A stretch of DNA of 64,000 nucleotides, from NCBI RefSeq assembly GCF_009914755.1, contig NC_060935.1. One strand, 5' to 3'. Below, piece after piece: positions 2,219-62,560 of the stretch. The number at the start of each line of letters is the position of its first letter. Positions within the stretch are counted from its first letter, which is position 1. This DNA comes from the human T2T-CHM13v2.0 reference genome, Homo sapiens. The notes under the pieces were generated by a model, which ran no database searches, was not told the origin of the DNA, and was given only the letters and a program-made list of their open reading frames with translations. A program made the position numbers and the translations under genes.

Positions 2219-3143
2219 TGCATTAGTCTATTCTCACGCTGCTATAAAGAACTACCAGAGACTGGCTGTGATGGTTAATATTGCTTGTCAACTTGATTGG
2301 ATTGAAGGATACACAGTATTGTTCCTGGGTGTGTCTTTGAGGGTGTCGCCAAACGAGATTAACATTTTAGTCAGTGTACTGGGAAAGGCAAACCCACCCT
2401 TAATCTGAGTGGGTACAATCTAATCAGCTGCCAGCATGGCCAGAATAAAAGCAGGTAGAAGAAGGTGGAAAACTAGACTGGCTAAGTCTTCTGGACTCCG
2501 TCTTTCTCCCATGCTAGATGTTTCCTGCCCTGGGACATCAGACTCCAGGTTCTTCAGATTTTGGACTCTTGCATTTATACCAGTGATTTGCCAGGGGCTC
2601 TCAGACCTTCAGCCACAAACTGAAGGCTGCACTATTGGTTTCCCTCCTTTTGTGGTTTTGGAACTCAGACTGGCTTCCTGGCTCCTCAGCTTGCAGACAG
2701 CCTATTGGACTTCGTGATTGTGAGAGTCAATTCTCCTAATGAACTCCCTTTTGTATATGTATCTATCCTATTAGTTCTGTCCTTCTAGAGAACCCTGACT
2801 AATACACTGGGTGATTTACAAAGATAAGTGGTTTAATTGACTCATAGTTCCACAGGCTGTACCAGAAGGATGGCTAGGGAGGCCTCAGAAAACTTAAAAT
2901 TATGGCATAAGGTGAAGGGGAAGCAGGCGCATCTTACATGGCCAGAGAATCAGGAAGAAAGAGAAGGGTGAGGTGCTACACACTTTTAAACAACCAGATC
3001 TCATGAGAACTCACTCTTATGAGAATAGCAAGAGGGAAGTCCACCCCAGTGATCCAATCCCCTCCCCCCAGGCCCCTCTTCCAACACTGGGGAATACAAT
3101 TCGACATGAGATTTGGGTAGGGACACAAATCCAAACCATATCA
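2219..3143 (-). mobile_element. MSTA-like MaLR LTR split by an MLT2A insertion
   Basis: Ends CCAAACCATATCA (revcomp TGATATGGTTTGG); halves 2219-2266 and 2807-3143 are colinear. Confidence 0.85.
2267..2806 (+). mobile_element. MLT2A2-like ERVL solo LTR
   Basis: TGTGATGGTTAATA...GAGAACCCTGACTAATACA termini; 5-bp TSD CTGGC/CTGGG. Confidence 0.9.
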
Positions 3144-21224: not shown

Positions 21225-21682
<458 letters not shown>

Positions 21683-22078: not shown

Positions 22079-22678
22079 TGTGATAGTTAATCTTATACGT
22101 CAACTTGACTGGGCTAAGGGATGGCCAGACACGTGGTAAACATTATTTCTGGGTGTGTCTTTGAAGGAATTCCTGGAAGAGATTAGCATTTGAATCAGTA
22201 TACTGAATAAAAAAGATCACTTTCACCTGGCATCTTCCAATGGTGATGACATTGGGTGAGCACCATTCAATACATTGAGGGCCTAAATCTAACAAAAAGG
22301 TGGAAGAAGGCGAAATTTACTCCCCTTGAACTGGAGCATCCGTCTTCTCTCCTCAGGCTCTGGAGGTCCTGGTTTTTTGGCCTTTGGACTCGGACTTAAC
22401 ACCAGCATCCCTTCACCTACCTCAGCTTCTCAGGCCATTGACTCACACTGAATTACACCATGAGCTTCTCTGGTTCTCCAGCTTTCAGATGATATTTTCC
22501 ATCTCCCTCTCTCTCTCTCCTTTCTCTTTTATTCTTTCTTTCTTTTTTTTTTCTTGGTAGAGTCTCACACTGTTGTTGTTGTTGTTGTAGAACTTGTCAG
22601 CCTCTATAATCATTCATAATCATGTGAACCAACTCCCAAACCTCTCTCTCTCTCTCTCCCCCTCTCTCTCTCTCTATA

Positions 22679-22711
<33 letters not shown>

Positions 22712-22796
22712 GTATATATGTATGTATGGAGGACATTATGTTATATGAAGCCAGAAACAGAAGGAAAAATATCACATGTATATATATACATAAACA

Positions 22797-22847
<51 letters not shown>

Positions 22848-23013
22848 GCGTGTTTATGTATATATATACATGTGATATTTTTCCTTCTGTTTCTGGCTTC
22901 ATATAACATAATGTCCTCCATACATACATATATACATATATATATATATACACACACATATATATATATATATCCTATTGGTTCTATTTTTCAGGAGAAC
23001 CTTGACTAATACA
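22079..23013 (+). mobile_element. MLT2B/D-like ERVL solo LTR
   Basis: TGTGATAGTTAATC...GAGAACCTTGACTAATACA; 5-bp TSD ATTCT/ATTCC. Confidence 0.88.
22689..22958. repeat. 270-bp AT-rich palindrome, (TA)n centre, no spacer
   Basis: Arms compared base by base; only mismatch is T22813/G22834. Confidence 0.97.
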
Positions 23014-28760: not shown

Positions 28761-28853
28761 TTTTATCCTTGGAGAATTTCCTTTGAACTGCTTTTATCCT
28801 TGGAGAATTTTCTTTGAACTGCTTTTATCCTTGGAGAGTTTCCTTTGAACTGC
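28761..28853. repeat. 31-bp minisatellite x3
   Basis: TTTTATCCTTGGAGAATTTCCTTTGAACTGC three times, one substitution each in units 2 and 3. Confidence 0.95.
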
Positions 28854-29324
28854 TAATCTAGACTTTCAACACCTCTTTCTGCCTTCAGATCTCTCTCTAC
28901 TTCTTTATTTCCCTCACTGACCTCCAACTATTAGAGTCAGGAAACTGTTGGAAGAAATCCTTCAGATCCTTTAATTCCTTGGTAGCTTGGACGGCAACTC
29001 TGACTTGATTTAATGACACCATTGCCAGGTACATTAACTTATTATCACTTTCACACCTTTAACTGCTTACTAGGTCTGACCTCTACTTTCATTGACAACT
29101 CTGTGGCTTCATTCACGGAAAGAAAATGAATCATTTGCAGGGCAGTCTTTCCGATGCTTCACCTCATTTCCATGTTTCTTATCTCTGAGGTTATAGTAAC
29201 ATGGCAGTAGGAAACTTACACTACTTTTTAGATACATTATAGCTAATTGAAAGAAAAATTGCTTTAGCTAAATACATTTATTGTAAAGCTTTCTCTCCAA
29301 TCATCTCATATATTAATAAATAGT

Positions 29325-29459
29325 AAATTCAAATAGAAATAGTCATCTTTCAATTTAAAAAGTTCAAGAAGTTTTATAACTACTGCTTCAAATTCAAATA
29401 GAAATAGTCATCTTTCAATTAAAAAAATGGTGCATGAGGTTTTATAACTACTGCTTCAA
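29325..29459. repeat. About 65-70-bp tandem duplication
   Basis: AAATTCAAATAGAAATAGTCATCTTTCAATT...TTTTATAACTACTGCTTCAA twice. Confidence 0.9.
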
Positions 29460-31993: not shown

Positions 31994-33394
31994 CAGGAAC
32001 CTGGGTATTTATCTTGTTTATTCATATTAACTTCTGTGAAATTAAAACAATACAAATTATCTTTCAGAATTCTTGTGTGGGTGAAATAAAGTATTGAATA
32101 TAGAAGCTCTATGTAGATTATTATGAAACATTATTGTATTTAATACTGATAATATAAATTCGAATGAACTCAGTTATTTTTGAGGCATTTTTAGACAAAG
32201 GGCACAAAGCTATTTATTATTTAATGGAGGCCTTATTTCCTTCACCGTGAATTCTATATTTGATAATTCATTTTCCATTTTTAAGATTTAATTTTTTAAA
32301 TTGGCATTATTATAGCATCAGATATTGAAATGGAATTGTACAGGAAATTGGCAATAATTGCTAGAGAAATGAAGGCTAATTACTATACTTACTTTTAACA
32401 CAATGTAAAAGCTCTGACAAAACAAATTAGGAGGTTTTCTCATCACCACAGCAACAATTTTCAACTTTGTTTTGCCTTTCTGAAAATATAACCAGTCAAG
32501 CAAAGTTAATTTAACTTGAGCAGAGTGAAAAATTGATTTGTTTTTACATGATGCAATTAGGCTTTAAAAAAAAGTCAAGTTAAATAATGATAAGCACAGT
32601 TTAATTTGTTTATAAGCCCTTTAGGAACTGTATTTTGAGTTATAGCTAACAAGAAATTGACTATAAAATAAGGAAAAAGATTTGACTGGTGGAATGTCTT
32701 ATTTCTTTTTGTTTGTGTCATTTATTTGAAATTACATGGTTGGTATAAATTAGTAACAACATTTGTATGCATTATGTCCTTCAGAAAGGCTTGTTGACTA
32801 TTACCTATCTATTAAAGAGGGACACACTTAAAATGACTCACTTATTTAACTCAAAATAAATATGCCTCCTCTTAAAGAAATCTACATACTCCAAACACAA
32901 ATGAGGGATATATGACAATATCCTTGAAATCAGGAATGTCTGAATTCTATCCATAACATAGCAACTATAAGCAAATAGCAAAGATTGAACATGAGATGAT
33001 ATTTGATCAAAATAATTATTTTTACTGAAGATTTTTGTGGGTATCCTGGCACTTCAATCTTAAATAATATGAGAAAAAGTAAAACATCAACCATTTATTT
33101 CTGACTAGATTACTTACATTATCTGTGTTCACCAAGATTCCCTTGATTTTTCAAGTTATGTATTTTTATTTACGTTTTGAAAAAAGTTTTGCTAGGTAAG
33201 CTCATCTACTTTCTGACCTTTGCACTCTTCCCTGTTCCTGGAGTTTTCTTCTCTTAGCTTTTTACATGATTGCTTTGCTCATTCTCTTCCTTTAGCTTTG
33301 GGTTCAAATGTCTTCTCCCTTAGAGGGCTTTCCCAATGGCACTATCCCAAAAGGCTTTCCCCAGTAGCCTTCTCTCATTAACTTCGACTTTTTC

Positions 33395-35003
<1,609 letters not shown>

Positions 35004-62134: not shown

Positions 62135-62214
62135 TTTTATATATATATATATATATATCTTGATCATTGTGTATATATATATTTATATGTTGTACATATA
62201 TATTTACATATATA

Positions 62215-62560
62215 TTCATATATGTTGTGCAATAATCAAGTCATGGTAGTTAGCTATCCTCACCTCATGTCTTTATCTTTTTATTTTTGGTGGAAAGAAC
62301 ATTCAAAAGCCTCTCATTTATCTATCTTGTAATGTGCAATATCTTGTTGTTAACTATCTGTCATCCTATTGTGCAATAGGATTCCAGAACTTATTCTTCC
62401 TGTTTGATTGTAACTTTGTACCCATTGACCAACCCTTCCCCATCCTCTCCTCTCTCCTCCCTTCCTAGTCTGTGGTAACCACTCTTCTACTCTCTGCTTC
62501 TATGATACCAAAACTTTTTAAAATTAAGATTCCACATATAAGTAAGATCATGTGGTATTC
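62215..62560 (-). mobile_element. L1MA-like 3' end
   Basis: TAACTTTGTACCCATTGACCAAC...GGTAACCAC...GATTCCACATATAAGT. Confidence 0.8.

What the first reader, a model, noticed from the sequence alone, without database searches (positions are those of the whole stretch)
22689..22958. 270-bp spacer-less palindrome with a single mismatch inside an ancient MLT2 LTR
Seen: 135-bp arms are exact reverse complements except T22813/G22834; the centre is a (TA)n run, and even the outer (TA)7 tract lengths match. The host LTR is heavily diverged, so the palindrome is very recent or is homogenised arm to arm. Established: AT-centred perfect palindromes extrude cruciforms and are fragile (PATRR-like; TA repeats are WRN/MUS81-sensitive). 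If transcribed it would give a long perfect dsRNA hairpin. It could also be an assembly or cloning artefact.
Basis: partly seen in the sequence, partly recalled or inferred. Interest (0 to 1): 0.7.

Follow-up and report, generated by a model that had tools for sequence, protein, structure and literature searches.

The report
Human palindrome built around LINE-1 scrap
A 270-base stretch of human chromosome 11 reads the same on both strands and holds two identical copies of an old LINE-1 scrap; it likely arose from one copying slip at an AT repeat, would be prone to folding and breaking like known fragile palindromes, and has no sign of a function.

Summary
The palindrome is real in this assembly: 22689-22958, one mismatch. 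It sits in the 3' simple-repeat tract of an old solo LTR (22079-23013). The nearest other copies differ at 4-7 positions, and no donor was found in the genome. So an old scrap was duplicated much later, most likely by a template switch primed at the self-complementary AT tract. Arm identity bounds the age only to under about 14-34 Myr (assumed rates), so 'very recent' is not shown. It is rare: none of 55 other AT-centred loci or 29 related LTRs comes close. A GRCh37 catalogue lists no palindrome over 200 bp on chr11, where this one would count 282, so that reference differs here. It resembles a PATRR in size and symmetry but is only 77% AT and has no known breakpoint. No annotated transcript covers it. 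Verdict: an uncatalogued member of a known kind.

The parts
22079..23013 (+). Old solo LTR (MLT2-type, name recalled), TG...CA ends, 5-bp flanking duplication with 1 mismatch; 935 bp against roughly 460-660 bp in most relatives
22642..22973 (.). Compound simple-repeat tract at the LTR 3' end (CT, TG/CA, TA units) that hosts the palindrome; 332 bp here against 14-144 bp in 23 of the 25 relatives where both anchors could be placed
22689..22823 (+). Left arm (informative part 22689-22799)
22824..22958 (-). Right arm, reverse complement of the left (informative part 22848-22958)
22727..22778 (+). 52-nt scrap of the LINE-1 ORF2 3' end with a 4-nt deletion, left copy
22869..22920 (-). Identical inverted copy of the LINE-1 scrap
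22800..22847 (.). Central AT-dinucleotide tract, 98% AT, one G interruption at 22834; predicted priming point and cruciform nucleation site
   Evidence: role inferred
22675..22696 (.). Left outer junction, TATA then (TG)9; faces (CA)4 then a TA tract at 22950-22973 on the right; predicted return point of the switch
   Evidence: role inferred

Best explanation
This is a near-perfect 270-bp palindrome inside the simple-repeat tract of an old LTR, and it likely arose when a single old arm, already holding a captured LINE-1 scrap, was copied backwards in one template-switch event primed at the self-complementary AT tract. Steps: (1, shown) the LTR is old and this position grows simple repeats in its relatives; (2, shown) the arm core is LINE-1 ORF2 sequence with no close donor found; (3, inferred) the scrap was captured into the tract long ago, by repair of a break or as the residue of a larger insertion; (4, inferred) a polymerase stalled or a break formed in the AT tract, the end re-primed on the opposite strand or on itself, copied about 110-125 nt in reverse and returned through TA/CA microhomology, which is switch order 3-2-1-4 in the four-point model; (5, inferred) the central G and the (TG)9/(CA)4 difference came later or at the junction; (6, predicted) it has no function, is length-polymorphic, and forms hairpins or cruciforms now and then.
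For: Arms differ at 0 of 111 informative positions, while the scrap differs from its 11 best relatives at 4-7 of 46-52 aligned positions plus a gap. A relative's frame matches human L1 ORF2p residues 1228-1271 of 1275, E=1.7e-4. Genome-wide pattern searches found only the two arms (31-mer, up to 3 mismatches) or one further hit each; those hits carry 7 mismatches in 53 or are unrelated. Both ends of the duplicated segment fall in self-complementary or alternating tracts. Order 3-2-1-4 with its mirror makes inverted repeats and is 31% of human-chimp events (PMC5453318, passages). Ape switch sites are enriched for AT-rich DNA (PMC7954356, passages). GRCh37 holds a different sequence here, as a polymorphic or unstable locus would.
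Against: No other haplotype or ape sequence could be read, so a single-arm predecessor is not observed. The copied length exceeds the published examples I saw (28 and up to 83 bases). The AT enrichment is for poly(dA:dT), not TA repeats. Identity allows an age up to 14-34 Myr, and older with conversion. The five-unit (TG)/(CA) difference may mean some age. The GRCh37 difference is weak evidence: one TA unit less in the inner tract drops the catalogue length from 282 to 98. The scrap itself gave no Pfam or PDB match (0 of 5 peptides); its identity rests on DNA alignment to relatives.
Confidence: 0.62

Rival explanations
1. An old palindrome, shared with other primates, whose arms are kept alike by repeated arm-to-arm correction (hairpin-templated repair or gene conversion).
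For: Substitution counts cannot exclude tens of Myr. The outermost tracts differ in length while inner ones match, as expected if correction fades outward. A paper title calls the NF1 palindrome hypervariable in humans and conserved in primates (title seen in reference lists only; the papers were not held).
Against: Symmetry ends abruptly in simple repeats with no decayed outer arm: the LTR sequence on the two sides is not complementary. The central G is uncorrected. One event explains everything with fewer steps.
Confidence: 0.23
2. The second arm is an assembly or polishing error, or arose in the cultured cell line, and is not in the human population.
For: GRCh37 chr11 has 0 palindromes over 200 bp under a rule by which this one measures 282. 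TA tracts are hard to sequence (own knowledge).
Against: The arms are not a mechanical mirror: central G and (TG)9/(CA)4 asymmetry. Both LTR flanks are intact and colinear with relatives. Clone-based references are reported to lack true palindromes; the PATRR8 reference was judged a bacterial deletion artefact (PMC4255720; PMC4940405). That this assembly is long-read and not clone-based is recalled.
Confidence: 0.11
3. A small palindromic mobile element inserted at a TA site, or two separate opposite insertions of the same scrap.
For: TA on both sides and inverted symmetry are the look of miniature inverted-repeat elements (own knowledge).
Against: No other copy in the genome; the core is LINE-1 coding sequence; the duplication includes flanking simple repeats base for base.
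Confidence: 0.03

Closest known systems
PATRRs (PATRR17/NF1 187 bp, PATRR8 300-350 bp, PATRR11 445 bp, PATRR22 about 590 bp)
   Same: A few hundred bp, no spacer, near-100% arm identity, AT-rich centre with less AT-rich arms. Predicted hairpin energy -137 kcal/mol, close to PATRR8's -122 to -139 (different programs). Absent or altered in a clone-based reference.
   Different: 77% AT overall against more than 90% (PATRR11/22) and 97-99% (PATRR8). No translocation known at this site in my searches. Arms hold a traceable LINE-1 scrap inside an LTR.
Short-range template-switch mutations (four-point model; PMC5453318, PMC7954356, bioRxiv 10.1101/2023.04.19.537475)
   Same: One-step creation of a perfect inverted repeat in AT-rich DNA; geometry fits order 3-2-1-4.
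   Different: Copied segment about 110-125 nt, longer than the examples I read; no parent sequence available to run the test.
Cruciform-forming expanded (TA)n repeats (S1-END-seq preprint 10.1101/2022.01.19.476973; PMC13645644)
   Same: AT-dinucleotide centre; PMC13645644 reports MMEJ repair at TA breaks favouring templated short duplications (passage).
   Different: The pure tract is only 17 units and interrupted; stability comes from unique-sequence arms; the reported structures were in microsatellite-unstable cells or on extrachromosomal DNA.

Membership tests
PATRR | Several hundred bp long | tested here: met
   270 bp; known range 187-590
PATRR | Nearly perfect palindrome without spacer | tested here: met
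   1 mismatch in 135 pairs
PATRR | More than 90% AT (stated for PATRR11/22 in PMC4940405) | tested here: not met
   77.4% overall, 97.9% centre, 73% arms; I did not find PATRR17's AT content
PATRR | Lies at a translocation breakpoint, broken at the centre | not testable with these tools
   One literature search listed 2 papers, neither about this site by title or abstract; no breakpoint catalogue available
PATRR | Size and symmetry polymorphism | tested here: inconclusive
   GRCh37 differs by inference from a count table; no haplotypes read
PATRR | Cruciform extrusion in supercoiled DNA | not testable with these tools
   Only single-strand folding computed
Template-switch mutation | New segment is a perfect reverse complement of adjacent sequence | tested here: met
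Template-switch mutation | Parent sequence without the inverted copy exists in an outgroup or another haplotype | not testable with these tools
   No other human or ape genome is held
LINE-1 ORF2 3' end (arm core) | Homology to L1 ORF2 | tested here: met
   Core aligns to 11 dispersed copies; one copy's frame matches L1 ORF2p 1228-1271, E=1.7e-4. Direct Pfam and PDB searches of the core were blank
MLT2 LTR (host) | Solo LTR with TG...CA ends, 5-bp target duplication, many diverged copies | tested here: met
MLT2 LTR (host) | Match to the named repeat-library family | not testable with these tools
   No repeat library; name recalled
Miniature inverted-repeat element | Multiple dispersed copies | tested here: not met
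microRNA precursor | Family match at curated threshold and transcription | tested here: not met
   Best Rfam score 55.8 against a threshold of 100; 0 matches at threshold in the window; no annotated transcript in the gene table

The most novel reading that the evidence does not exclude
This is a fragile palindrome caught near its birth: a human-specific, polymorphic inverted duplication that clone-based references lost, one of an uncounted set of TA-seeded long palindromes visible only in complete assemblies. Its LINE-1 marker would let the birth, arm correction and decay of a PATRR-type site be read directly from pangenome haplotypes and apes, and it would act as a germline break or translocation partner at 11q22.
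Probability: 0.2. Interest if true: 0.68.

Novelty: new member of a known kind. Interest (0 to 1): 0.4.

Why it matters
Perfect palindromes over 200 bp are very scarce in clone-based references (only chr3 and chr19 in GRCh37), and known PATRRs were found through patients' translocations. How they are born is hard to study because their arms are nearly pure AT. Here the arms hold unique, traceable sequence inside a datable host, so single-arm against double-arm alleles and mirrored mutations can be scored directly. If it is only a neutral intergenic scar, about 77 kb upstream of PDGFD and 40 kb from the nearest lncRNA, it matters little beyond that.

Tried and rejected
Donor of the LINE-1 scrap: none in the window or genome. 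One copy shares the 4-nt deletion but differs at 7 of 53 positions. These searches are heuristic or mismatch-limited, so a donor is not excluded. Pfam: 0 of 5 peptides matched; the 22-aa core frame had no PDB match. MicroRNA: only sub-threshold hits to TA-rich hairpin families. Mobile palindromic element: no copies. Sibling palindromes: 0 of 49 other C(AT)17G loci exceed 102 bp (54 such loci exist, 50 were listed, one is the target); 0 of 6 further loci picked by hand from the first 100 of 1239 listed matches exceed 60 bp; 0 of 29 LTR relatives score above 20 against 131; 0 of 11 L1 relatives above 9. This is a sample, not a census. Literature: none of 10 searches listed a paper that names this locus in title or abstract, or a T2T-wide census of long palindromes; subscription papers are not covered. 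The two NF1 palindrome papers and one PATRR review were not held. The full coordinate catalogue behind PMC7680136 was not among the 7 supplements held (2 read whole, all 7 word-searched). Supplements of PMC5453318 and the bioRxiv preprints were not seen and might list this site. Earlier scan findings were not available.

Full report
Observation. An ungapped scan places the centre at 22823/22824 and the ends at 22689 and 22958, with one mismatched pair, 22813/22834. Nothing else in the 64-kb window approaches it. The strand folds at -137 kcal/mol against -35.4 +/- 3.3 for 100 shuffles; the left arm alone folds at -16. The central 48 nt are an AT tract with one G, so spacer-less symmetry there is automatic; the informative arms are 111 bp and identical. 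The inner (TA)5 and outer (TA)7 tracts match, but the next tract is (TG)9 on the left and (CA)4 on the right.

Host. The palindrome lies in a solo LTR, 22079-23013, with TG...CA ends and a 5-bp flanking duplication with one mismatch. The other genomic matches are 69-86% identical over their best-scoring stretches. I fetched 29 relatives and could place both anchors of the 3' tract in 25 (L029, L030, L038, L039 dropped). The tract is 14-144 bp in 23 of them, 331 bp of TA-rich repeat in one, and 419 bp with what looks like a LINE-1 end in one. At least 6 of 25 show expanded simple repeats, judged by eye. The site is thus a natural repeat nursery, but the best palindrome score among the 29 is 20 against 131 here. 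The name MLT2 is recalled, not tested.

Arm core. Positions 22727-22778 are not simple sequence. A genome search gave the two arms at 100% and 11 dispersed hits at 81-84%. Over the core these differ at 4-7 of 46-52 aligned positions plus a gap, and they continue into longer homologous sequence on both sides. The open frame of one (L008) matches human LINE-1 ORF2p residues 1228-1271 of 1275 (E=1.7e-4). Pfam gave nothing for 5 of 5 peptides and the 22-aa core frame nothing in PDB, so the identification is through DNA relatives. No donor was found. A 31-mer with up to 3 mismatches hits only the two arms. Two other patterns each gave one more hit: one a LINE-1 copy with the same deletion but 7 mismatches in 53, the other unrelated. 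The scrap is therefore probably old, and its two copies much younger than it.

Age. With assumed rates of 0.4-1.0e-9 per site per year, 0 differences in 111 bp bound the arms' separation at under 13.5-33.7 Myr (one-sided 95%). The chance of 0 differences is 0.46 at 7 Myr and 0.0013 at 60 Myr at 0.5e-9. Matching short TA tracts favour the young end (own knowledge of slippage, not computed); the TG/CA mismatch pulls the other way.

Rarity and other references. PMC7680136 (first part of the text, passages, two supplements read) counted GRCh37 palindromes with a perfect central 8 bases and up to 4 mismatches. It found 718 over 200 bp, all on chr3 and chr19, and none on chr11. Under my implementation of that rule this locus measures 282, so GRCh37 must differ here if the catalogue is complete. 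The difference could be small: losing one TA unit from the inner tract gives 98, and moving the G into the centre gives 34, whereas one unit off the outer or central tract leaves 274-280. Clone-based references are reported to lack PATRRs (PMC4940405, first two of four parts), and PATRR8's reference version was judged a bacterial deletion (PMC4255720, passages). In CHM13, 0 of 49 other C(AT)17G loci exceed 102 bp and 0 of 6 further loci exceed 60 bp.

Mechanism. The simplest history is LTR insertion, growth of the repeat tract, capture of the LINE-1 scrap, then one inverted duplication. An end in the AT tract can pair with itself or the opposite strand, copy back across the scrap and return where alternating repeats again offer pairing. 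This is order 3-2-1-4 of the four-point model, which with its mirror makes up 31% of human-chimp events. That paper favours inter-strand over fold-back switching (PMC5453318, passages), and I cannot tell the two apart, nor either from snap-back synthesis during break repair (PMC13645644, passages). The copied length is above the 28- and 83-base examples I read (bioRxiv 10.1101/2023.04.19.537475, first of four parts). All steps after the anatomy are inferred. I put 0.62 on this, 0.23 on an old palindrome kept by arm correction, 0.11 on an assembly or cell-line product and 0.03 on a mobile element.

What it would do. At physiological salt, 445- and about 590-bp symmetric PATRRs extruded cruciforms and the 187-bp one did not to a significant degree (PMC1851657, first part and passages). 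At 270 bp with a symmetric AT centre this one is in between, so occasional extrusion is plausible but unproven. S1-END-seq found TA cruciforms in microsatellite-unstable cells at expanded tracts (preprint 10.1101/2022.01.19.476973, passages). The gene table shows no transcript over the site, and Rfam hits are far below threshold.

Comparison and verdict. It works like a small PATRR but fails the more-than-90% AT feature (77.4%, against PMC4940405) and has no known breakpoint, so I do not file it as one. PMC7999016 and PMC4057610 (passages) and PMC7954356 (passages) gave background only. Ten literature searches listed nothing that names this locus. It is a real, rare, apparently uncatalogued example of a known kind, probably without function, and its value is as a traceable test case for how long palindromes are born. 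Interest 0.4.

Noticed in passing
window 33380-34967: A 5'-truncated LINE-1 on the minus strand (about 33395-34885; an ORF2 stretch matches L1 ORF2p at E=4e-83) is joined at its 5' end to a 5S rRNA fragment on the plus strand (Rfam E=3.7e-5, below threshold; annotated RNA5SP348). One 15-bp duplication flanks both (33380-33394 and 34953-34967). It looks like a single insertion in which 5S RNA was copied in inverted orientation, a twin-priming-like chimera. The 5S match runs to about 34952, beyond the annotated 34921.
   Followed up: partly
window 22500-22590: A second insertion inside the same LTR: CT/T-rich run, then about 30 bp resembling 21388-21420 (88%; looks like a short Alu end, recalled), then (TGT)6.
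   Followed up: no
window 2267-2806: A second old LTR related to the host (69% over 127 bp at the 5' end, 84% over 43 bp at the 3' end), with no palindrome.
   Followed up: partly
L036 (G000:C13:100199387-100202536): A related LTR whose 3' tract has grown to 331 bp of TA-rich tandem repeat with a 97-bp imperfect palindrome: a possible precursor-like state.
   Followed up: no
L053 (G000:C3:97038540-97041575), L084, L090: Smaller symmetric structures near TA tracts: a 102-bp palindrome with 3 mismatches made of short tandem units (L053), a perfect 60-bp one (L090), and a perfect 36-bp one with unique-sequence arms around a TA centre (L084).
   Followed up: no
L032 (G000:C12:104130348-104133565): A related LTR with what looks like a LINE-1 3' end inserted in the same 3' tract, showing that this site can take up LINE-1 sequence.
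   Followed up: no
window 28761-28854 and 29325-29459: Short tandem duplications: 31 bp x 3 (95% matches) and 65 bp x 2 (90%).
   Followed up: no
window 62138-62223: A degenerate TA tract of about 86 bp just upstream of the first exon of LOC102723879; no long palindrome.
   Followed up: partly
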